A stretch of DNA of 64,000 nt from Raja brachyura (taxonomy: Eukaryota), in assembly GCA_963514005.1 (NCBI GenBank), contig OY740813.1:9548001-9612000 (forward strand), written 5' to 3'. Position numbers and translations under genes: made by a program. Within the stretch, counting starts at the first letter, position 1. Every line of letters begins with the position of its first letter. The notes beneath the pieces were generated by a model. It worked only from the letters and a program-made list of their open reading frames with translations, was not told the origin of the DNA and ran no database searches. Shown piece by piece: positions 1,054-64,000 of this stretch.

Positions 1054-47704
<46,651 letters not shown>

Positions 47705-48815
47705 TTTCTGTTACAGGCATAAAAATACATATTAAAAATTGATTTTAGAAATAGGTGAAGACAACGTTAAAAAGCCATCTCAAACATTTCAACTAATAGT
47801 CAACTCCATCCCTGTAATTAAAGCATCCCCCCCCCCCATGTAATTGACTTAAAAACATATAGAACCAGAGCAAGCTTCGTCAAGTTACAATAAATTATTC
47901 AATATGGAATGTTTTGTGAGTAGCATTGTCAGAACTATTGATGGATTTCAAACTCTTTATAGTATACATTTTCTATTACTGTAACCTAATGTATGGATGA
48001 TTGATAAAACATTTAGGGAATTCATCACCATAAAAATCCAGCACCAGAACACTCAAGATCTCACCTGACGAAAAGCCAAGAAGAAACTCCAAAATAGAGA
48101 AGGAACACTTTACAACATCTCCTCAAGCAAAGAGAGCCACTGATGGAAGGATCCATGTATTCATCCCGCAGAACACTACCACAATCTCAATAGGTCAATA
48201 TTACTACAGGTCAGCAAGAGAATGATAAAGCCATCCATCAGCTGAAAAATATCGAGGCTACTAGACAAACAAAATCTGGTGAATTACCGCAACATAATAT
48301 GCAGCACAGAATCAGACCATGTTTCTGCCTTTGGATCTCAATTGAGTACACATGATCACTCTAATCTCCAATATCAGTAACCTACTTCACAAATGCATAA
48401 AAATGGGTCGGCCTCACATTGTACAACAACCACCAGTTCCCCACTGTGCTCTTCTTCTACCTCTATACCCCCAACCCACCGAGACAATAATCAACATCCA
48501 TGGGAACAACGGTTACTCAGTATTCATTCTACACAAAAAAGAAAATTCTCACCAGGTCAGCAATGTTTTGCAGCACTTTCACAAAAGCGAGTGACATCAG
48601 GCTTTGTATTACCACTATCACCAGTGGTGCAGCTAGCACAGTTCCAGGGTCCCAGGTTCTATTTTGACCACCAGTGCATCCGTGTTAGGTTTGCACATTC
48701 TCTCTATGATTTTATGGGTATCCTATGAGTTCTCTGTTTTGCTTCCACATCCCAAAAATGTAAAGGGTTGTAGATTAATTGTTAATTAATCCCTTAGCAC
48801 ACAGGCAAGTGATCA

Positions 48816-49980
48816 GGGCGGCACAGTGGCACAGCAGTAGAGTTGCTGCTTTATATGGCAGTGACTTGGATAGGCTGGGTGAGTGGGCAAATGTTTGGCA
48901 GATGCAGTATAATGTGGATAAATGTGAGGTTATCCACTTTGGTGGCAAAAATAGGAAAGCAGACTATTATCTAAATGGTGGCCGATTAGGAAAAGGGGAG
49001 ATGCAACGCAACCTGGGTGTCATGGTACACCAGTCATTGAAAGTAGGCATGCAGGTGCAGCAGGCAGTGAAGAAAGCAAATGGTATGTTAGTTTTCATAG
49101 CAAAAGGATTTGAGTATAGGAGCAGGGAGGTTCTACTGCAGTTGTATAGGGTCTTGGTGAGACCACACCTGGAGTATTGCGTACAGTTCTAGTCTCCAAA
49201 TCTGAGGAAGGACATTATTGCCATAGGGGGAGTGTAGAGAAGGTTAACCAGACTGATTCCTGGGATGTCAGGACTGTCTTATGAACAAAGACTGCATAGA
49301 CTCGGTTTATACTCTCTAGAATTTAGGAGATTGAGAGGGGATCTTATAGAAACTTACAAAATTCTTAAGGGGTTGGACAGGCTAGATGCAGGAAGATTGT
49401 TCCCGATGTTGGGGAGGTCCAGGACAAGGGGTCACAGCTTAAGGATAAGGGGGAAATCCTTTAGGACCGAGATGAGAAGGACTTTTTTCACACAGAGAGT
49501 GGTGGGTCTCTGGAACTCTCTGCCACAGAGGGTAGTTGAGGCCAGTTCGTTGGCTATATTTAAGAGGGAGTTAGATGTGGCCCTTGTGGCTAAGGGGATC
49601 AGAGGGTATGGAGAGAAGGCAGGTACGGGATACTGAGTTGGATGATCAGCCATGATCATATTGAATGGCCGTGCAGGCTCGAAGGGCCGAATGGCCTACT
49701 CCTGCACCTAATTTCTATGTTTCTATAGCGCCAGAGACCCAGGTTTGATCCAGACTATGGGTGCTGCCTGTCTGGAGTTAGTATGTTTTCTCTGTGACCA
49801 AGAGGGATTTCTCCAGGTGCGCTGGATTCCTCACACATTCCAAAGACGGGCAAGTTTGTAGATTAGATGGCTTCTGTAAATTGTCTCTAGTATGTAGAAT
49901 AGAACTAGTGTATGGTTGATCGTTGGTCAGTGCGAACTCAGTGGGCCAAAGAATCGGTTTCCACGCTATCTCTCTAAACT
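48816..49980 (+). mobile_element. tRNA-derived V-domain SINE (HE1-like), split by a CR1 insertion
   Basis: Head gggcggcacagtggcacagcagtagagttgctgc resumes after the LINE as gcgccagagacccagg...ggagttagtatgttttctctgtg...; tail tctctaaact; colinear with the copy at 17845. Confidence 0.8.
48856..49727 (+). mobile_element. Young 5'-truncated CR1 LINE nested in a SINE
   Basis: DLDRLGEWANVWQMQYNVDKCEV...LVRPHLEYCVQF...TRGHSLRI...WNSLP; tail tttctatgtttctat. Confidence 0.92.
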
Positions 49981-52900: not shown

Positions 52901-54418
52901 CAAACCAGCAACCAAACGATGGCCAAAATTATCACTCCATGGTCATGCCATAATTTAAAATGATCATCATTTGCAGCAAGAGTATTCAGAAAGCTATGGG
53001 GAACAGATGCAGGGACAAAATAAGTCAATTTTTTTTTTTTTTTTTTAAATCACCAAACAGTCTGCCCAAGAAATTCATGCTTCTTAGTGTATGAAGAGTT
53101 TATAAAAGCATTGAAAAAGAAATGGAGCAAAACATCTACCTGCCTTTCATGTGCATAAGCAAAGAATGGGCTGCAGTCAGTGATAACTAAATTTTGAAGA
53201 AATAATTTTAAAATCCGGTTTAATATTCAGACTGAGAATAAAAAGTGGGCTTGACAGAGTAAAACTAATCAACTTATTCACGAGCCAAATTAATATCAGA
53301 AAGCTCAAGTGAACAGAAATAAATAAAAGTTTCACACGTAGAACGTATTTTGTGCAAGCTTTGTTTTTCAAAAAGACAACCAAGATTAAAAGATTAATCC
53401 TACATAGCATACTCAGGTCTTTCTATAACAGTTTGAGAGAAACATTAATATCTGCCATATAAACTTATAATTAAGGTTAAATTAATTTATAGTAACATAA
53501 ATACTTCCATAAAAAAAGGTTCCTTGAGAGAATGATTATAAATAATATAAATATTACTTTTTAAGTTAATTTAAAAGCTTGTTGAATGATAACCTTGTAG
53601 GATATCTTTAAGAAACATTATCCAAGGTAGGACTATGATACTAAGGTAGGACGTTAGTTTCTATACAATTACCCTTGCAAAAAAAATGTACAAGTTAGCT
53701 GCCAATATTTCAACTGAGAATTTTTGTTGTAAATAGTAATTAATTGAAGAAAGGCAGTTAGAAGAACAGTTCTAAGAGCAAATAAAAATGCAAATGAGAC
53801 TCCAAATCATTAAGGAATTCCGTTATATCAGTCGGAGGTAAAATGCAACTGTCAAAGCATGCTGCATGCGTCACCCAATTTATTGCTCTTGTAATCATGT
53901 CCATGTTACTGGAGTACATACCAATTAACAGTCAGTCAATCACACTATATTCCACAAATACACAATACCTGCAGTTTGGTTTTACGGAATGAAGACATGA
54001 TGAGCGGTGCTGTTTGGTAAGCAGAATATCTGCTAAATAATTATAAAACAATTCACACAAAATGCATTCTGCATAAAGATCGGATATTTCAATATAAAAA
54101 GTGTTATTGTTAAATTCTTTGTATTTGTTTCTCTTAACTTCAACACTGAACCAAAAAGGCAATTGTATTCAGGCCTCCTCAAACACAAGGTAGTTTTGTA
54201 ATTTGTATTTAGGCAACCGCATTCAATTCCAAATTCTATTTCGATTAGAAATGGTGGGTTTGCTCAGTTCTAATTTCTTCCATGAAAACCATCATTATTT
54301 AGATTATTAGCAATGGAACTTTTTTTTTTTTTTTTTGTTTTAAGTCATTTAATTTAAAACTGTGGCGGCACATTTTTATAACCTTAAATAAAATTAGGAT
54401 ATTCAAATTGCATTCCAA

Positions 54419-54520
54419 TCGAAAAATCTGAAGAAGGGTCTCGACCCGAAACGTCATCCATTCCTTCTCTCCAGAGATGCTACCTGTCCCGCTGAGCTAC
54501 TCCAGCGTTTTGTGTCTATC
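54419..54520 (+). mobile_element. Penelope-like short repeat with an intact minimal hammerhead motif
   Basis: CTGAAGA-A-GGGTC.TC.GACCC-GAAACGTC at 54428-54455; 11-bp TSD TTGCATTCCAA at 54408-54418 and 54521-54531. Confidence 0.8.
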
Positions 54521-56759
54521 TTGCATTCCAACACAACTGGTAAAGCAATAACTAACTCCACCCTGACCTTGTTTTTGATGCAGTATACAAAACACATTCA
54601 CTGCAAAATCTTCTACTAGCTTCCAATTGCATAACCTTTGCATAAATCTTCAACTTTATGTAATCTTTGAGCATTTATTCTAGTGCACGCCCTCTTACAA
54701 AAATGTGGCAATTAAAAACATTGTGTATCAGACTGATTCTATACCTCTCCCCCTCCCCCCCCCCAATAAATGATCTAACCGTAGCATCAGTATTTTATTT
54801 ATGTAGTTAAATCCATGTCAAATCCTCATACAGAAAAAAATTATTCTGCAACAGCTCAAACCTCCCCCCCCCCATCTTCTTTAACTATGCAGTATGTTTA
54901 TATGTATATATGTTTATAAATATGATACATTTGAACATTTGAACGAAATACCAATAATAACAACATGATGCACTGCTTTAATTACCGTCCTCACCTGGAA
55001 GATATCCTGCCACACCACCAATTGGACTTTTCACCATTATGCAATTTTAACCTATTGCCCCAACTAAAATATTTTCCCCTCCCTGTATACGTTTGAGATA
55101 ATTAAATTTAGATTACACATTGGCAGCACTGCAAAACACACAAGAGGATTTTTAATAAATTGTACTCCAGGAAAGAGCTAGGAATCCCTTGCACACATCT
55201 TCCAAATTTAATCTGAATGGCCAATCAATCTATTATTCCTACAGAATGGGTCACTGTTTCACATTAGATTACACATTATTGGATCGTGCCTTTATACAGT
55301 TGCATTCCAACAAATAAATTCATAATATACATGACAGATTAATGTAATAACTGTGATAAAATACTTTCAAAAAAATAAGCATTGACAATTTGCTTAAATC
55401 ATCAAAAATCCAGCAGAATGGAATAAATTCTGGCATGTCCATTTTTAAAAAGTATATTAACAATTTGTCTTTGCGGAGGCCAGGTTTCTTTAGTTTCATG
55501 TTTCCATGAAATTAACGAAAAGAAAACAATTGTTAAAATCATGTTAACTAACTAAACCTTTGCATTAAACAAATGAAATGGTCCTGGAACAGAAATGATA
55601 ACATTCACACAACTCCTGCTTCCAGTACCACTCAGCCTTCCATAATTTTATGGCCATAAAACCGCTTTCATTACAACATCACATTTTGATTTGGATTCAC
55701 TGTAACATGCTCCTGGATATAGTTAATTCTTGGGGAAAAGCATTGCATTCCTCAACTGTTGCTAGAGGAATCGCCCTGACATCTGTTATTGGGAATCTAA
55801 ATGAACCAGTTTTCAAGCTGTTCTGTTAATTAATGTGGGATTATTTTAAGGTCCATTTTGTCGCAATAAAGTATTTTAAATCCCTCCCCTCCCCCCCCCC
55901 CCCCCCCACTTAATTTCCAGAAATAGTTTCATGTCATGGATTTTATGAACACCGAACAATGAATTAGCTATTCTAATACATTTTCTCTTCCTGTCGGGCC
56001 ATTCGCCAAATCCATTTATTTCTATCAAATTATGTACTCCCCATTCATTCAATCCAAGATCATCTGCCAACCTATTTGAGAGAATACATCTATGTTTTCC
56101 TCTTCCTTCTACCACCCACCGCTCTCCTCTGACCTTCCTTCCCTGGAAGAAGAATTCCACATTGCCACAATGAAGACGAGCCCTCTCCCCAAGACTACCT
56201 CTGGACCGATTCCTCTCATCTATGGATATTTATATTCTAGATATGTTCTCTGACCTTGCTGCGGTCGAAACCGCAGGAAACCCATCCCCGCAGCCATTTT
56301 AAAGCTCATTGTGATTGAAAACACCAAAAACCAGGGGGGAGAAAAGCCATGTTTAACATTATCTTAAACATGCCGTACAATTGTATGCAACAGCACATAG
56401 GAAAAAAAAAATCTGAAAATGCGCAGCCGCGGGGAACAGAAATATTTTACATATTTTTGAAAAAATACTCCAGATGTCAGATATACAGATTCAGTTCAAT
56501 TATTCAGTTCAATAATTACAGTTCAAATGTATATATTAAAATTCCTCGCTCCTTAGACCGGAGACAACGCCCGATAACCATGTTGACTGCAAACCCTTCT
56601 CCCATATCAGTCAAAACAAAATGCAAAATCAAACAGAAATTTGATGTTTTACCTCAATAGTTTATTCAAATGATTTCTCAACAACCACACTTAAAATATG
56701 AATATATATAAGTAGATATTACGCAGGTTGAATAAAAACGGAGCATTGAAATGGATAAA

Positions 56760-57350
56760 TTACCGACTTTAAACCATCATATTTCCAGATAAATGTAAAA
56801 CATACCAAAACCCTTCCTTCGCTCGCTCGCTCGCCGATCGCTGCAGACTGTCGCCCTCCGAGCTCGCTCCAGCCTCTTTTACCGACCGCGATGATGATGT
56901 CACTGTTCTGCAGCAAGGAAACGAACAAACCCGAGCACCTTCGGCCAATTCCGTCAAGCGGGCGCGGCAGCTACTTCGGCACTTTCCGTCATCGGGGTGA
57001 GGCGCCTGCTTCGGCGAGCTCCGCTGTCGCCCAAACACTGCACCGCTCCAATCCTCTCAAGGTCAAGAATGTTTTTGAATGTTGGGGTGTTTAGCAGAAA
57101 GATCAAAAGCTAGATTCGCTCCGAACAGCCTCGGTGAATTCCGCATATCCTCTGCGGCGTTGCATCGGCAACCACGCACCATTCCGAATTAACATTTACC
57201 GAAATCATCTCTTCGAAGTAATAGATTATACGCGAAGGGTTTTTATTTTGTTCAAGCACTGTCGGTGACATCAGAAAGACCATATGTGCCAATGTGCATT
57301 TCTAATTGGCCCGAGAAAACGATACTAGAATACGAATACTTTGCATGCCT
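56760..57350 (-). promoter_or_regulatory. CpG-rich probable SPTAN1 promoter and non-coding exon 1
   Basis: The main non-repeat CpG-dense segment, about 9 kb upstream of the ATG exon. Candidate donors TTG|gtatgt (exon edge 56806) and TCG|gtaatt (56764). CCAAT on the minus strand at 57305-57309. The TSS cannot be determined from sequence. Confidence 0.65.
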
Positions 57351-57749
57351 CGAATTCTTCTTTTATAAATATGGCATTTATTGCCTATTTAAGAAGTGGG
57401 TGGTGAACTACTCTTAACAACTGGGTACTCTCACAATAGTATGAAGTGGGACGTTCAAAGTAAATTTACAACGATATTTGGTAAGGGAAAACTGGGACAC
57501 AGATTAAATGACATAGGGGCGTGTGCAAGCCTATACATTTACAGCTATTCTGATGGGAGAATATTTAGGGATGCAAGTAATAAAACCCCATGTGGGTTTT
57601 AGAAGACAACACATATTCACGTAGTCGCCCCAAGCACATGTAACCTTGCTCCCTTCTTAGACATGTAACCCGACTGTCTAAGAAGGGAGCAAGCAAGGCA
57701 AAAAAAAAAGTGGTGGAGAAACTCAGCGGGTGCGATTTCCGTGCTTGGT

Positions 57750-58545
57750 AAGACTTTAGCTTCCATTATTAAGGATGAGGTTTCAGGGTACTTTGCCTGA
57801 CAAATCTTGGAGTTATTTGAGGAAGTAACAAGCAACATAGACAAAGGAGATTGTATGGATTTTATTTACTTTGATTTTCAGAAGGCCTTTGACCAGCCGC
57901 AGTCCGAGAGGCTGCTAAACAAGATTGGAGGCCATGGTATTCGAGGCAAGGTATTAGCATGGAAGGAAGATTAGCTGACTGCATATGGCAAGGAGTGGGA
58001 TGAAAGGAGGTCTTTTCTGGTTGGGGACCAGTGACTAATGGCTGAAGAAGGGTCTCGACCCGAAACATCACCCATTCCTACTCTCCAGAGATGCTGCCTG
58101 TCCCGCTGAGTTACTCCAGCTTTTTGTGTCTATCTTCTGTTTAAGCCATCATCTGCAGTTCCTTCCTACCACTACTTCTCACACTCTATATGAATGATCT
58201 GGATGTTGGAATTGCATGGGATGATACAAAGATAAGTGGAGGGCAAGTAGTATTGAGGAAGCAGGGAGGCTGCAGAAGGACTTTGACAATTTGAGAGTGG
58301 GCATTTTTGGTAGTAGGAATAAAGGAGTAGGCCATTTTCTAAATGGAGAAAGGATTCAGAAATTGGAGTAATAAAGGAACTTGAAAGTGTAGGATTCCCA
58401 AAACTTTAATTTGCATGTTGAGTCGGTATTAAGGAGGTTATACGTTGTTTTTAGTAGAAGAAGAATCTAGGACCAGAAGGCACAGCCTCAGAATAAAAGC
58501 ACATTTGATGGATTGAATGGCCCAATTCTGCTCTGTCTTATGATC
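57750..58545 (+). mobile_element. Degraded CR1 RT fragment with an inserted Penelope-like repeat
   Basis: tgcctgacaaatcttggagttatttgagga, tacttt gattttcagaaggcctttga (DFQKAFD), gatgatacaaagataagtgg. Confidence 0.7.
58041..58168 (+). mobile_element. Penelope-like short repeat, hammerhead-like motif
   Basis: ctgaagaagggtctcgacccgaaacatc...ccagagatgctgcctgtcccgctgagttactccagc. Confidence 0.75.
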
Positions 58546-60839
58546 TGAAGAACAATGTAGCCAACAAGCTACATGTTTAGTGTAGAATCTAATGCAGAAA
58601 ATACTACAGCCAAATTATTCACAGCTAAATCTGATAAAGATGACAAATAACCAGAGAGAAATATCGACCAGAGGTCCAGAGAGAAATCCTATCACAATGG
58701 GAGTTGTACAAGGTAATACATCTCAGCTGCTGCTACAAGAGTCCCTCAGCAGTCTAGGATAATGAATAGTCCCAGTTACCTCCCCAACTACTGAAAAGTT
58801 ACCTCCCCAGATGCTGCCTCATCTGCAGAGTTCCTCTAGCATTTTGTGTTTTGCTCAAGATTCCAGCACCTGCAGTTTCTTGTCTTTCCAGTCTTGGACA
58901 ATGAACTAATCTGTCAACACGCTACACTCACTCCCCCTATTTTATTTTATTCCTTTCAAGTAGTGGTACTCGGGTTAATAACATTTCCCCTTTAAATAAG
59001 GCTGATTTTTCTACCACATGCAATTCTGTCCCAAACCTAATCACGCAATCCTATGTATTGTGCACACTGCACCAAATATCTGCAGAGCCCACAATACCAC
59101 CGTTCCACCAGGAAAGGCTCTGGAAAATGCAGTTAAAAATTTGGCAGGTGTTCAAATTACTCAGCATTTTTTTTTGTCGCCAGTATTGGCAAAGCTATTT
59201 TTCTTAAAAAGATCGAATTATTTTGTCTAATACTACAAAAAGATGCATTATTTGGAAACAAAAAAAAGTTGTACTTTTTTCTACTCCAAAGTCAGATTTC
59301 CTATTTAGCACTTGTTTACCTGTGCTATCAAGCATGCACATTGCTGTGATCATTCTTATTCTCCCAAAGGACATACTTTTCAGTCACTTCCCTCATATTT
59401 CTCTTCCATATTAGTTTTAGGGTATTAAACAATCATGTGCAAATCAACATCTGCAGTGATTCTGTACCTTCATTCAAAAAATGTTTTTTTTTTTTTTAAC
59501 TCAAATGGGCTCAGAATAATCAAGCAGGGTCAAGGACTTTCCCCCACTAAATTTCCCCTCCTGCCGAGGACTTACGCAGTGAATGCTTGGGGCAAGGAAC
59601 TGTTTCACCTCTCCGTCAATTTTAATGTTAAATTTACTTCTTACCCCCCCCCCCCCCCCGAATGGAATATCTCACCCCAGTTCCAACCTATGCCATGTTG
59701 TCACCTTCTCCCTCCCCCTTAACTTCCTCCTCCCCGACACCAAGTGGGCAGTCCTCGCAGAAGACTCACGTTCGTACCCATGCACCCCGAGTTTTGGGTC
59801 TAACAAGATGTTGAGTTCTGCTGTCACTGTCTTTGTGACTATTCTTTGATTTCAAAAAATGTGCCAGTTTTCATTGATGGGTCAGCAATAGAAGCAGCAG
59901 GTTCAAATTCCTGGGCATTAACATCTCAAGATGAACTGTTCGGGGACCAACACAAAAATCATACTAACTGTTCATGTTAATAAACTCAACTTGACTATTT
60001 CTTCAGCATGGAATCCTCACCCCTTGCCGAGAAGCTAATTCTATGTCTCCAGCTCTCCCCTTCCACCTGGACAACCCTCGCCTGGCCTCTTACCCTCTCT
60101 TGACTTTTAATTTCAAATTACCAATGTAACATTGACAACCGCAACTTCTCCACACCTTCCCACTTTCCAACCTCACTCCATCTGAATGTCACCTCCCCCA
60201 GCCCATCATTGGCTCATCATTCCACAAACTGAATAATCCCACCACTACCAGTCTCCAACACTCTCCCAGTCTCTCCCTATCACTTTGATATATTGACTAC
60301 CTTGCCTCTAATTTGAGTTCTGATGCAGTCTGACATCCATCCAACTTGAAACTGACATCCATTCACTCCACAGATGGCACTTTATCCCCCAAGGGCTTCA
60401 AAAGGTTCAGGAGTGTTCGACATATGAACTGAACAACAAAATTCTTACTTATTGCAGCTTTATAGGAGCATTAGTTAACAAAAGAGAAATACAATAAATC
60501 AGTTACTCTCAATACAATAAACCGACCAAGATAGTGCAAAGACCAAAAAAACACATTTTGATATAAACTTAAATAAATTAGATCAGAAACCTCTAGATGC
60601 AATTAAGACAATTACAATAGATTGACATAATTCACAGCAAAGGTCTTTAAGCAGTAATCAGCTAGAAACCCAGTTGATACTTCTCATTCTCAGCCAAGAA
60701 AGGAGTGGGATTAAGTTATTGCACTCCTCTTATAGCATATGGGATAATCTCCATCCTTGTCCTCCTTGACCAACCAGCAGACTGTTAGTTGATCATATTA
60801 TCCTCCTGACAATCTTATCTTAATCACTGAGGCCAACAT

Positions 60840-61760: not shown

Positions 61761-63343
61761 TCAAGAGTCAAGTCAAGAGTCAAGAGAGTTTTATTGTCAT
61801 GTGACCCAGATAGGACAATGAAATTCTTGCTTGCTGCAGCACAACAGAATATGTAAACATAATACACTGTGCAAGTAAGAAAATAAGAAATAATTAAATT
61901 TTGTTTTCAGTTCAATTGACAATTAAACACTCTTGATTCATCCTTCAACTTCCTTCTTAACGCTTGCCTATGTGTTGCTCCTCAGCATCATCATTCTAAA
62001 GCACAACGGTTTCCTCTATATCATAATAATACCCACGTTTATCAAATCACAACCATCTCTCTTGGCCTGATATTTATAAATTGTCAGCCTGTCTGACATT
62101 TAGGAATGGTTCAGTGAAAAAAAATAAAGCACTTGTCACAAAGACTGTTCCCCCAGTCACGGAATCTGTCACATCACATCTTTCTAAAAATTGATTCACT
62201 GCTCACAAGCAAGGTATGTTTTCTGACCAAGATAAGTTTTGAACACTGTTTCTGTGACAGATTTAGACTGTTCCAACTAATTATCACCATCCAACTCGCC
62301 CATCTTCTGCTGAATCCCTCATCCAAGGGTTCACCTCAAAACACAAACATGTCATTGTACTCCTGCCTTCCCTATAACTTTCTATCATAGTAAGGCATGA
62401 TGCATTGATATATACAGCATCATCCCATTTATCAGTTCTCCATGATATTGCAGTTCAGAAAACCATTAACTTCAAAATGCTTATCCTCGCTTTCATGCCT
62501 TGCCCCTTTCTATATGTACAGCCTCTTTCAGCCCCTTAGAATTATCTGTATACTTTGAGTTTTGGCTTACTCAGTAAAATTATTTTAAAACAAAATCACT
62601 CCATCATCTAGAGCCAAGTCCCTAAAAGCTTGGAGATCATCTCCTTTATCTCTAAAGCAGTGGTTGCAGAGGATATTTATCTTTAAAGCTGAGACTGATA
62701 GGTTTCTTGATTAGTAAGGGCATCAAAGATTACAGGGAGAACAGGGTTGAGAAGGAAAAATAGATCAGACATGATTGAATGGCAGAGCAGATTCAATGGG
62801 CCAAATAGCCCAATTCTGCTCCTACGTCGTATGATCTCTCTACCCCTCCCGAAGACTCTCATTAAAATCCAACTTAAGTTTTAAAAGTTTAGTAATGCAC
62901 CAATACCTTCACATGGTACAATATCAATTTTCTTTGATAATGCCAGTGTTGTTTTGAAATATTTCTGCTCTGTTAAAATCATTAAAGTGGATACTGCATC
63001 TTGCATACAAAAGGACAAAACCCATTAATTCATAAATGCTAAATTCCAAAAGTGCTATAAACTATTGCATTTAGGAATACATTTAACACAAACGCTCTTC
63101 GCAAAACGATAATAGATTTGACACAATGCAATACAAAAAGTCTTCTGACCAAAATCAAGTAGGATAGCCCATGTTCATTCAACAATTGTTTATGAATTGA
63201 CCTCTAATTTTATTTCTCCTTGCACAGAAGAAATACAGAAACAATATCACATGGTTATTTTCCATTTTTAAAAAAGGCTAGTTAATCTCAGTTTCGTGAC
63301 AACATTTTTTTTTTAAACTCTAGGAGAGGTAGAGATCTTTAAA

Positions 63344-63422
63344 GTCTGAAGATGGGTCTCAATCCTTCCCTCCAGAGATGCTGCCTGTCCCGCTGGGTTA
63401 CTCCAGCATTTTGTGTCGACCC
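63344..63422 (+). mobile_element. Penelope-like short repeat, internally deleted
   Basis: gtctgaagatgggtctc...ccagagatgctgcctgtcccgc; 14-bp TSD TAGAGATCTTTAAA at 63330-63343 and 63423-63436. Confidence 0.75.
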
Positions 63423-64000
63423 TAGAGATCTTTAAAATTATAAATGGCTATTTAAAGGAGAAATAAAACAACTTCATTTGTAGGGAAGATATCCAAAACT
63501 GGGGTTCATAAATACAAGAGAGCCACCAATAAATTCAATGAAGAAAGAACATTTTGCTGATGGGGCAGGGTAGGAAGAGCCTATTATATCCACTCATGCA
63601 GATTTGGACTAGATGGGCCAAATAGCCATCTGAGGTGTTGAAAATTCTATGCAAATAGAAATTTCTGCACAAAGCTGTTCTACTCTGAGAGCATAATGAC
63701 AAAATAAATAGAATTATCAGTTGATAAGAGAAAAATGAAAATACAACAGGGGGCAGCTTACGTGGACCACAAAGTCACAAAGCAGATGGATGCAATGGTC
63801 TTTATAATTTTCTAGGAACGCCTTAAATACTTCATTTATTTATATGCATGATTGTCCCAAACTACAGGGAAGTGGCAAAATACATCTTATAAAGTGTAGA
63901 AAATATAGTAAAGGAATAAGCAGAAAAGGGCCAAATAAAACTTCCCAACCCCACATCTAACTGGTTCCCCATCAGGCAGATTACCAGAGTACGCCTCAGT

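What the first reader, a model, noticed from the sequence alone, without database searches (positions are those of the whole stretch)
54408..54531. Dispersed 80-130 bp repeat family built around a minimal hammerhead-ribozyme motif
Seen: CUGAAGA-A-[GGGU CUCG ACCC]-GAAA-CGUC at 54428-54455. This gives both hammerhead core boxes, a stem II, a palindromic ACGU in place of stem III, and a GUC triplet (predicted cut after 54455). Related copies lie at about 8345, 14422, 17303(-), 26829(-), 37362, 58042, 58805 and 63345. Known: Penelope-like retroelements carry minimal type-I hammerheads in their terminal repeats that are thought to act as dimers through a palindromic stem III, and an extra nucleotide after A9 occurs in natural hammerheads. 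Caveat: stem I is only about 2 bp in this copy. Inference: a very abundant ribozyme-bearing retroelement remnant in this genome.
Basis: partly seen in the sequence, partly recalled or inferred. Interest (0 to 1): 0.7.

Follow-up and report, generated by a model that had tools for sequence, protein, structure and literature searches.

The report
Million Penelope stubs with uncut hammerheads
This short repeat is the cut-off end of a known kind of jumping gene (a Penelope-like retrotransposon) that carries a tiny hammerhead-ribozyme motif; it fills an estimated 4% of this likely cartilaginous-fish genome, and its end points suggest it was mostly copied from RNA that the ribozyme had not cut.

Summary
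Observation confirmed. 54428-54455 holds both hammerhead core boxes, a 4-bp stem II, ACGU and a GUC triplet. The copy sits between 11-bp target-site duplications. All eight other copies exist, but only one of them keeps both boxes. The repeat is the pseudo-LTR end (hammerhead plus 'tail') of an endonuclease-bearing, Neptune-like Penelope element: RT, a zinc-finger linker and GIY-YIG lie directly upstream in longer copies. Sampling gives about 1.2 million copies (4.1% of the genome), and 82,164 exact intact motifs were counted genome-wide. Copies decay like dead DNA, stem II shows no two-sided covariation, and the predicted fold hides stem II. Of 325 copies, 163 start at the 5' edge of the core and only 11 start within 3 nt of the cut site. 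Head-to-head pairs pair one long-tail with one short-tail arm in 39 of 45 cases. So the motif is a real Penelope hammerhead, but these stubs were likely reverse-transcribed from uncut RNA. Known kind. The scan already reported the same family in this and other genomes. Cleavage and expression are untested.

The parts
54408..54418 (+). left target-site duplication (11 bp)
54419..54426 (+). 8-nt filler between the duplication and the element; origin unknown
54427..54520 (+). Penelope pseudo-LTR stub, from the 5' edge of the hammerhead to the short-tail end (model column 93); about 5% from its subfamily majority
54428..54455 (+). minimal type I hammerhead motif: CUGAAGA, extra A, stem II 54436-54447, GAAA, palindromic ACGU 54451-54454, C17 at 54455 (predicted cut after 54455)
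   Evidence: compared with PMC4209133
54521..54531 (+). right target-site duplication (11 bp)
58042..58167 (+). copy with both core boxes, palindrome lost by CpG change, long tail
8344..8439 (+). older copy, decayed core
14422..14515 (+). older copy, G12 lost
17288..17386 (-). older copy, C3 changed
26821..26892 (-). copy without the hammerhead; 15-bp duplication at 26811-26825 and 26891-26905
37362..37456 (+). copy with pyrimidine-rich upstream pLTR-like sequence and an internal deletion
58799..58882 (+). old copy without the hammerhead
63346..63426 (+). copy with stem II deleted; 14-bp duplication at 63330-63343 and 63423-63436
1890..47700 (-). host context: coding exons of a spectrin-repeat gene (alpha-II spectrin/SPTAN1-like; name recalled). 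A CpG island at about 56.5-57.5 kb suggests the focal copy lies in its first intron, antisense to the gene

Best explanation
The repeat is the hammerhead-plus-tail end (pseudo-LTR) of a Neptune-like Penelope retrotransposon, and the 95-130-bp stubs are likely the default short products of its copying cycle rather than active ribozymes. Shown: the same sequence stands at the 3' end of RT-linker-GIY-YIG elements, and at the 5' end of near-full-length copies, where the tail runs on into the element body. Stubs end at two fixed 3' points about 30-35 nt apart, carry 9-18-bp target-site duplications, and often form head-to-head units. Inferred, by analogy with the anole element PAc: the element's protein nicks both target strands and starts reverse transcription internally at the two tail sites, often one site per strand. 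It copies the RNA through the uncut hammerhead and stops at a ragged point 0-5 nt upstream of CUGAAGA. That point is likely the RNA's 5' end, a TCAGT initiator-like start of an internal promoter. The hammerhead would cut only weakly, as a dimer or with protein help, at another stage of the cycle or not at all. After insertion the copies decay neutrally. The focal copy lies antisense to its host gene, so it would not cut the host pre-mRNA.
For: GIY-YIG C-terminus upstream: about 24 of 30 loci picked by the endonuclease end show the hammerhead 100-220 nt after the endonuclease match (counted by eye; one is the query's own locus). RT motifs, a CX2-5CxxC linker and GIY-YIG stand in order before the hammerhead in L114 and L119, and parts of that order in L104, L113 and L227. 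Pfam: GIY-YIG E 2.9e-4; RVT_1 in 4 of 10 fragments, best E 5.7e-5. 31 longer homologues, 6 of them listed with GIY-YIG, the best a shark protein at 62% identity. The tail continues into the element body in L226 and L227, and L227 also ends in a hammerhead; 0 of 150 long-tail sample copies run past the tail. 3' ends are bimodal at about column 95 and about 126. Duplications of 9 bp or more flank 35 of 212 solo copies against 0.6% in shuffled pairs. 56 head-to-head pairs against 11 tail-to-tail and 8 head-to-tail among 358 hits; a duplication flanks 13 of 56 (control 1.7%); both arms are of one subfamily in 44 of 54 (26% expected). One long plus one short tail in 39 of 45 classifiable pairs, p 5e-7. 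5' ends: 163 of 325 at the core and 11 of 325 within 3 nt of the cut site; all five subfamilies have both long and core-starting copies. Stem II probability is 0.008 in the focal copy and at most 0.06 in six copies with native upstream sequence. G12 is mutated in 63 of 206 copies, like other CpG guanines. PMC11167929 (parts 1-2 of 4 read): internal RT start at two tail sites, both strands extended, uncut RNA the dominant substrate.
Against: No RNA evidence for a start site, for expression or for cleavage could be obtained here. The initiator reading rests on a 5-nt motif that is also a splice-acceptor-like site. Non-CpG core positions differ from their subfamily majority at 4.6% (64/1390) against 8.5% (874/10341) for other invariant positions, which at face value suggests some selection on the core. 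A-run slippage and hidden subfamilies confound this, and same-context columns do not differ (G5 0.95 vs 0.93, G8 0.93 vs 0.94). Pfam scores are below the curated cut-offs (21.5 vs 22.6 bits for GIY-YIG), no intact ORF was seen, PDB searches gave 0 hits, and no RT tree was built. The 80 sampled stretches were round-number positions on large contigs, not a formal random draw. Thermodynamic folds ignore protein chaperoning and tertiary contacts.
Confidence: 0.8

Rival explanations
1. The stubs are a self-propagating non-autonomous SINE-like family. A few short master copies that start at TCAGT are transcribed from their internal promoter and borrow the Penelope protein.
For: Huge excess of short over long copies (163 core-starting against 26-49 long, of 325). 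Solo copies carry their own duplications. Stubs are nested inside other copies (L038, L046, L057).
Against: All five subfamilies hold long as well as short forms, and endonuclease sequence lies upstream of long copies in four of them, one weakly. 5' ends are ragged over about 6 nt. So short forms arose repeatedly from long sources. This does not exclude that stubs are also re-copied.
Confidence: 0.3
2. The 5' boundary is set by splicing or by an RT stop at a spliceosome-bound 3' splice site (polypyrimidine tract plus CAG just before the core), as the Drosophila virilis Penelope intron ends at helix I.
For: Long copies have a pyrimidine tract and CAG directly before TCTGAAGA. PMC4209133 part 2 reports that intron end in D. 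virilis.
Against: 57 of 110 strict short copies keep 2 or more nt of TCAGT, 34 keep the AG and 22 keep the CAG. No shared first-exon sequence follows upstream (flat composition at -6 to -10). No GT-AG joint among the 15 joints shown of 182 (contigs only, RNA status a guess).
Confidence: 0.15
3. An active retrozyme: the hammerhead cuts multimeric RNA into monomers or circles that are reverse-transcribed, as for non-LTR retrozymes.
For: Intact core in every subfamily majority. 82,164 intact motifs. A few short tandem arrays (L085).
Against: Only 8 head-to-tail pairs among 358 hits. No 5' peak at the cut site. Stem I is 2 bp and stem II is sequestered in the predicted fold; the predicted dimer swaps the stem II strands instead of pairing ACGU. 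No covariation above shuffles.
Confidence: 0.07
4. The hammerhead likeness is a coincidence inside an ordinary LINE or SINE 3' end.
For: Rfam gives no hit. No two-sided covariation.
Against: All core positions plus the Penelope-specific traits (extra base after A9, G10.1-C11.1, palindromic 15.2-16.2; PMC4209133 part 2) are present at the expected pLTR place behind a Penelope ORF. In subfamily majorities only 1 of columns 2-28 varies (loop II), against 10 of columns 29-47.
Confidence: 0.04

Closest known systems
Minimal type I hammerheads in pLTRs of metazoan Penelope-like elements (Cervera and De la Pena 2014, PMC4209133; parts 1-2 of 4 read, figures and supplements not seen)
   Same: CUGANGA and GAAA boxes, extra nucleotide after A9, G10.1-C11.1, palindromic 15.2-16.2, no helix III, position in the pLTR, mostly single dispersed motifs from truncated elements.
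   Different: Stem II is 4 bp and stem I is 2 bp (S. mansoni: 7-8 and 4-5 bp; D. virilis also has 2 bp). One nearly uniform family rather than many covarying ones. 82,164 exact motifs against about 4,000 (coelacanth) and 9,000 (Xenopus) reported there with a different descriptor.
Neptune-type EN+ Penelope-like elements (Craig et al. 2021, PMC8557442; 12 passages seen)
   Same: [quoted passage not shown]
   Different: Clear 9-18-bp duplications here, in ordinary AT-rich DNA. Most insertions are reduced to the pLTR end. Clade placement by tree not done.
PAc, Poseidon element of Anolis (Frangieh et al. 2024, PMC11167929; parts 1-2 of 4 read)
   Same: Two RT start sites about 100-130 nt past the hammerhead that define the tail; both strands extended; uncut RNA as template.
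   Different: A different clade (Poseidon). PAc's ORF starts at stem II, whereas most copies here have no ATG there (N7 is A in 89%). The evidence here is genomic, not biochemical.
Non-LTR retrozymes (Li, Clavereau, Pollet 2026, bioRxiv 10.64898/2026.07.22.740005; part 1 of 5 and 7 passages seen)
   Same: Type I hammerhead, pLTR origin, no coding capacity in the short form.
   Different: Retrozymes are tandem arrays with a hammerhead in each unit. These copies are dispersed or head-to-head and do not start at the cut site.

Membership tests
EN+ Penelope-like elements | PLE-type RT upstream (DKG, MDV, GxxMG, YIDD) | tested here: met
EN+ Penelope-like elements | GIY-YIG endonuclease in the same element | tested here: met
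   Pfam E 2.9e-4, just under the cut-off; motifs; 6 of 31 homologues listed with PF01541
EN+ Penelope-like elements | RT and EN in one intact ORF | tested here: inconclusive
   all copies examined are frameshifted or interrupted; domain order is collinear
EN+ Penelope-like elements | pLTR repeated at both ends | tested here: met
   L226: hammerhead and tail run into the 5' body; L227: tail at the 5' end, hammerhead at the 3' end; 2 loci only
EN+ Penelope-like elements | inverted 5'-truncated copy and 30-40-bp tail at one end | tested here: met
   56 head-to-head pairs; 39 of 45 long/short
EN+ Penelope-like elements | retained spliceosomal intron | tested here: inconclusive
   acceptor-like site before the core and a donor-like site about 35 nt past the tail; no usable RNA reads
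Neptune clade | CX2-5CxxC linker between RT and a C-terminal EN | tested here: met
   L104, L114, L119 and 5 of 6 homologues checked
Neptune clade | RT phylogeny groups with Neptune references | not tested
   no labelled reference set was on hand
Minimal type I hammerhead (PLE min-HHR) | core C3-A9, G12-A15.1, U16.1, H17 | tested here: met
   unchanged in five subfamily majorities
Minimal type I hammerhead (PLE min-HHR) | extra base after A9, G10.1-C11.1, palindromic 15.2-16.2 | tested here: met
Minimal type I hammerhead (PLE min-HHR) | helix I of 4-5 bp, as in S. mansoni min-HHRs | tested here: not met
   2 bp only (U-A or U-G, then G-C); D. virilis has a 2-bp precedent (PMC4209133 part 2)
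Minimal type I hammerhead (PLE min-HHR) | compensatory covariation in stem II | tested here: not met
   0 of 4 pairs with a two-sided change; one pair U-A to U-G in 6 of 28; whole-structure score 259/500 shuffles; the family is too uniform for much power
Minimal type I hammerhead (PLE min-HHR) | self-cleavage as a dimer or with protein | not testable with these tools
   needs a bench assay
Non-LTR retrozyme | tandem units, each with a hammerhead | tested here: not met
   8 head-to-tail pairs among 358 hits
Non-LTR retrozyme | copy ends set by the cleavage site | tested here: not met
   11 of 325 within 3 nt, no excess over neighbouring columns

The most novel reading that the evidence does not exclude
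About a million stubs form a fossil record of Penelope transposition. The RNA starts at an initiator overlapping stem I, which disables the hammerhead on that transcript. A dimeric RT primes the two target strands at two different tail sites in one insertion event, one site per strand. In this lineage the hammerhead sequence would be kept mainly as promoter or RNP structure, or would cut only read-through RNA. This gives an in-genome test of the open question of what Penelope hammerheads are for, in what may be one of the most hammerhead-rich genomes counted.
Probability: 0.35. Interest if true: 0.55.

Novelty: new member of a known kind. Interest (0 to 1): 0.3.

Why it matters
The kind is known: Penelope-like elements carry minimal hammerheads in their pLTRs. 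What adds value is scale and regularity. About 4% of a 2.7-Gb vertebrate genome is one 100-130-bp pLTR end, and its end points can be counted. They support in a vertebrate genome what was shown in vitro for one lizard element (two internal RT starts, both strands primed, uncut template), and they point to where the RNA begins. The role of these hammerheads is stated as unclear in PMC8557442 (passage seen), so a family with a million recorded events makes that question testable by counting.

Tried and rejected
Rfam at gathering thresholds: 0 hits. A genome-wide pattern for other hammerhead families (5,344 matches, control 1): the 100 listed all looked like mutated copies of this family. A descriptor scan of 864 kb gave 63 hits, 62 from this family, and 0 on reversed sequence, so no cross-family covariation set could be built. 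Covariation on 28 copies: nothing above shuffles for stem II, stem I or two candidate tail helices. PDB searches with one RT fragment and with a 10-sequence profile: 0 hits. The ESM Atlas gave no result for this sequence. Sequencing runs: no RNA holder listed on record and no raw reads, which is no evidence on expression. Four contig sets whose RNA status is a guess were laid on L045: loose ends fall at the same boundaries (1756-1761; 1850, 1880, 1889), but contigs cannot show starts, ends or strand and most rows were not shown, so I use this only as a weak hint. An A-run before the core seen in the first 30 loci was a selection effect of my query and vanished in the sample not chosen by that query. 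An exact boundary at the AG splice acceptor was rejected because ends are ragged and often keep CAG. Literature searches listed no paper on this family in skates or sharks. The library lacks most subscription journals and Repbase/Dfam, where the repeat is probably catalogued, and bioRxiv supplements could not be seen; the one chondrichthyan genome in the 2026 retrozyme preprint may bear on this.

Full report
Observation. All eight other copies exist. Of the nine, two keep both core boxes and one keeps the ACGU palindrome as well. Two lack the hammerhead altogether. Rfam finds nothing at its thresholds.

Context. The window lies at G000:C35:9548001-9612000 of a 2.7-Gb genome. The best homologue of the element's RT is a shark protein at 62% identity, so the host is likely a cartilaginous fish; 'skate' is my recall and earlier AI notes, not a test. 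Exons of a spectrin-repeat gene run on the minus strand from about 47,700 down to at least 1,890 (Pfam Spectrin for 3 of 3 exons sent). A CpG island lies at about 56.5-57.5 kb. The focal copy is therefore probably in intron 1 and antisense to the gene. The two copies that lie in the gene's sense direction (17386 and 26892) have no intact core.

What it belongs to. One of the first 30 loci carried a Penelope-type endonuclease end upstream of the motif. Searching with that end gave 30 loci, about 24 of which show the hammerhead 100-220 nt after the endonuclease match (by eye). Walking upstream gave RT motifs DKG, TMDV, GxxMG and YIDD, a CX2-5CxxC linker and GIY-YIG, in that order before the hammerhead. 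Pfam support is modest: GIY-YIG E 2.9e-4, below the cut-off, in 1 of 4 fragments; RVT_1 in 4 of 10. The 31 longer homologues include RT plus GIY-YIG proteins of 630-1060 aa. In L226 the hammerhead and tail run on into the 5' body of the element, which is shared with L227-L230, and L227 runs from the tail through RT and EN to a second hammerhead. So the repeat is the pLTR of an EN+ Penelope-like element, Neptune-like by its linker. No intact ORF was seen and no tree was built.

Abundance. In 80 ten-kb stretches at round-number positions plus the window (864 kb), a profile of the 127-column end finds 377 hits covering 4.1% of the bases, and 0 on reversed sequence. That extrapolates to about 1.2 million copies; density varies (mean 4.6, sd 3.7 per 10 kb, 10 of 80 stretches empty). 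An exact pattern for an intact core with paired stem II and ACGU matches 82,164 times, control 0.

Ends. 3' ends pile up at about column 95 and about 126, and 0 of 150 long-tail copies continue into the element body. This is the PLE 'tail', which in the anole element marks two internal RT start sites (PMC11167929, parts 1-2 read). Of the 325 hits at E below 1e-8 (52 weaker hits dropped), 163 begin at the core, 26 are long and 23 possibly long, 64 begin within columns 7-25, 11 within 3 nt of the cut site, and 38 further down. There is no excess at the cut site: 1.6 per column against 3.4 in columns 7-25. Among 110 strict short copies, 35, 18, 23, 12, 8 and 14 keep 0 to 5 nt of the upstream TCAGT, and composition is flat beyond it. 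All five subfamilies have long and core-starting copies, so the boundary was produced repeatedly. Duplications of 9-18 bp flank 35 of 212 solo copies (control 0.6%; 68% AT). Among 358 hits there are 56 head-to-head pairs, 11 tail-to-tail and 8 head-to-tail. Duplications flank 13 of 56 whole units (control 1.7%), and both arms share a subfamily in 44 of 54 (26% expected). In 39 of 45 classifiable pairs one arm has the long tail and the other the short tail (p 5e-7; 11 pairs unclassified). Inverted copies and a one-sided tail are known PLE traits (PMC8557442, passages).

Is the ribozyme real and working? The motif has the PLE-specific traits listed in PMC4209133 (parts 1-2 read). Across subfamily majorities the core never changes, and only the loop II column varies in columns 2-28, against 10 of columns 29-47. 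The tail motifs are equally invariant, so this is constraint on the source elements, not proof of catalysis. Stem II shows no two-sided change in 28 copies: one pair goes from U-A to U-G in 6, and the whole-structure score sits at the shuffle mean. Individual copies decay: 72 of 212 have an intact core, 46 also keep stem II, and G12 is lost in 63 of 206, like other CpG guanines. Against neutrality, non-CpG core positions vary at 4.6% against 8.5% elsewhere. A-runs and hidden subfamilies confound this, and same-context columns do not differ. Predicted folds bury the core in an alternative hairpin (stem II probability 0.008 in the focal copy, at most 0.06 in six long copies), z-scores are near zero, and the predicted dimer swaps the stem II strands instead of pairing ACGU. 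Published min-HHRs cut only weakly as dimers (PMC4209133), and the anole one cuts only with its protein and is not needed for insertion in vitro (PMC11167929).

Mechanism. Shown: identity as a pLTR, two 3' ends, duplications, pair asymmetry, the 5' boundary and no cut-site peak. Inferred: staggered nicking and priming on both strands, at the two tail sites, on uncut RNA whose 5' end lies at TCAGT. That motif resembles an initiator (consensus recalled). D. virilis Penelope has a LINE-like internal promoter (PMC2377424, passages), though there it lies upstream of the intron and the hammerhead. A start there would leave almost no 5' strand for stem I and so disable cutting on that RNA. Rivals are re-copying of short masters, a stop at a splice acceptor, and a retrozyme cycle. 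No RNA data could decide among them.

Novelty. A new member of a known kind. I formed this reading before the look-ups. One search found no notes near this window, and one search listed eight AI notes on the same family in this and other genomes with the same conclusion; they are not independent support. My six literature searches listed no paper on this family in elasmobranchs, but Repbase/Dfam and most subscription journals were not searchable. PMC6155905 (passages) only confirms the general PLE-hammerhead link. Interest 0.3: ordinary in kind, unusual in scale, useful as a record of mechanism.

Noticed in passing
window 1890-47700 (-), CpG island about 56500-57500: Spectrin-repeat gene (alpha-II spectrin-like; name recalled). 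First coding exon near 47,700; a probable promoter and non-coding first exon at the CpG island.
   Followed up: partly
window 48779-49636 and 57801-58371: Fragments that read like CR1/L2-type LINE RT ends (family label recalled, not tested); the 58042 stub sits inside one of them.
   Followed up: no
L038, L046, L057 (3' UTR of longer copies): Short stubs inserted inside the 3' UTR of longer copies of the same element, with duplications visible in L038 and L046; suggests the element often inserts into its own pyrimidine-rich pLTR.
   Followed up: no
L227 oriented 1750 and 8356-8445; L228 and L229 5' ends: Near-full-length copies begin inside the tail (about columns 100-110), and L227 ends at the short-tail site (column 94), like a unit-length permuted copy. 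L228 and L229 are 93% identical, so not independent.
   Followed up: partly
L226 oriented about 2274; same site in L227-L229: Donor-like AAG/GTATG about 35 nt past the tail, followed about 36 nt later by an acceptor-like site in L226; a possible very short intron at the start of the element body.
   Followed up: no
alignment A1 columns 61-68 with 123-130, and 78-81 with 90-93: Two candidate helices in the tail, 93-95% paired but without covariation; possible binding or start-site structure for the RT.
   Followed up: partly
L085 1125-1429, L081 9739-9892, L096 4163-4387: Short head-to-tail arrays of an about 67-nt unit that starts at GAAACGTC or just after it, lacking the first core box.
   Followed up: no
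L148 about 1220-1259: A stub inserted next to telomere-like (TAACCC)n repeats.
   Followed up: no
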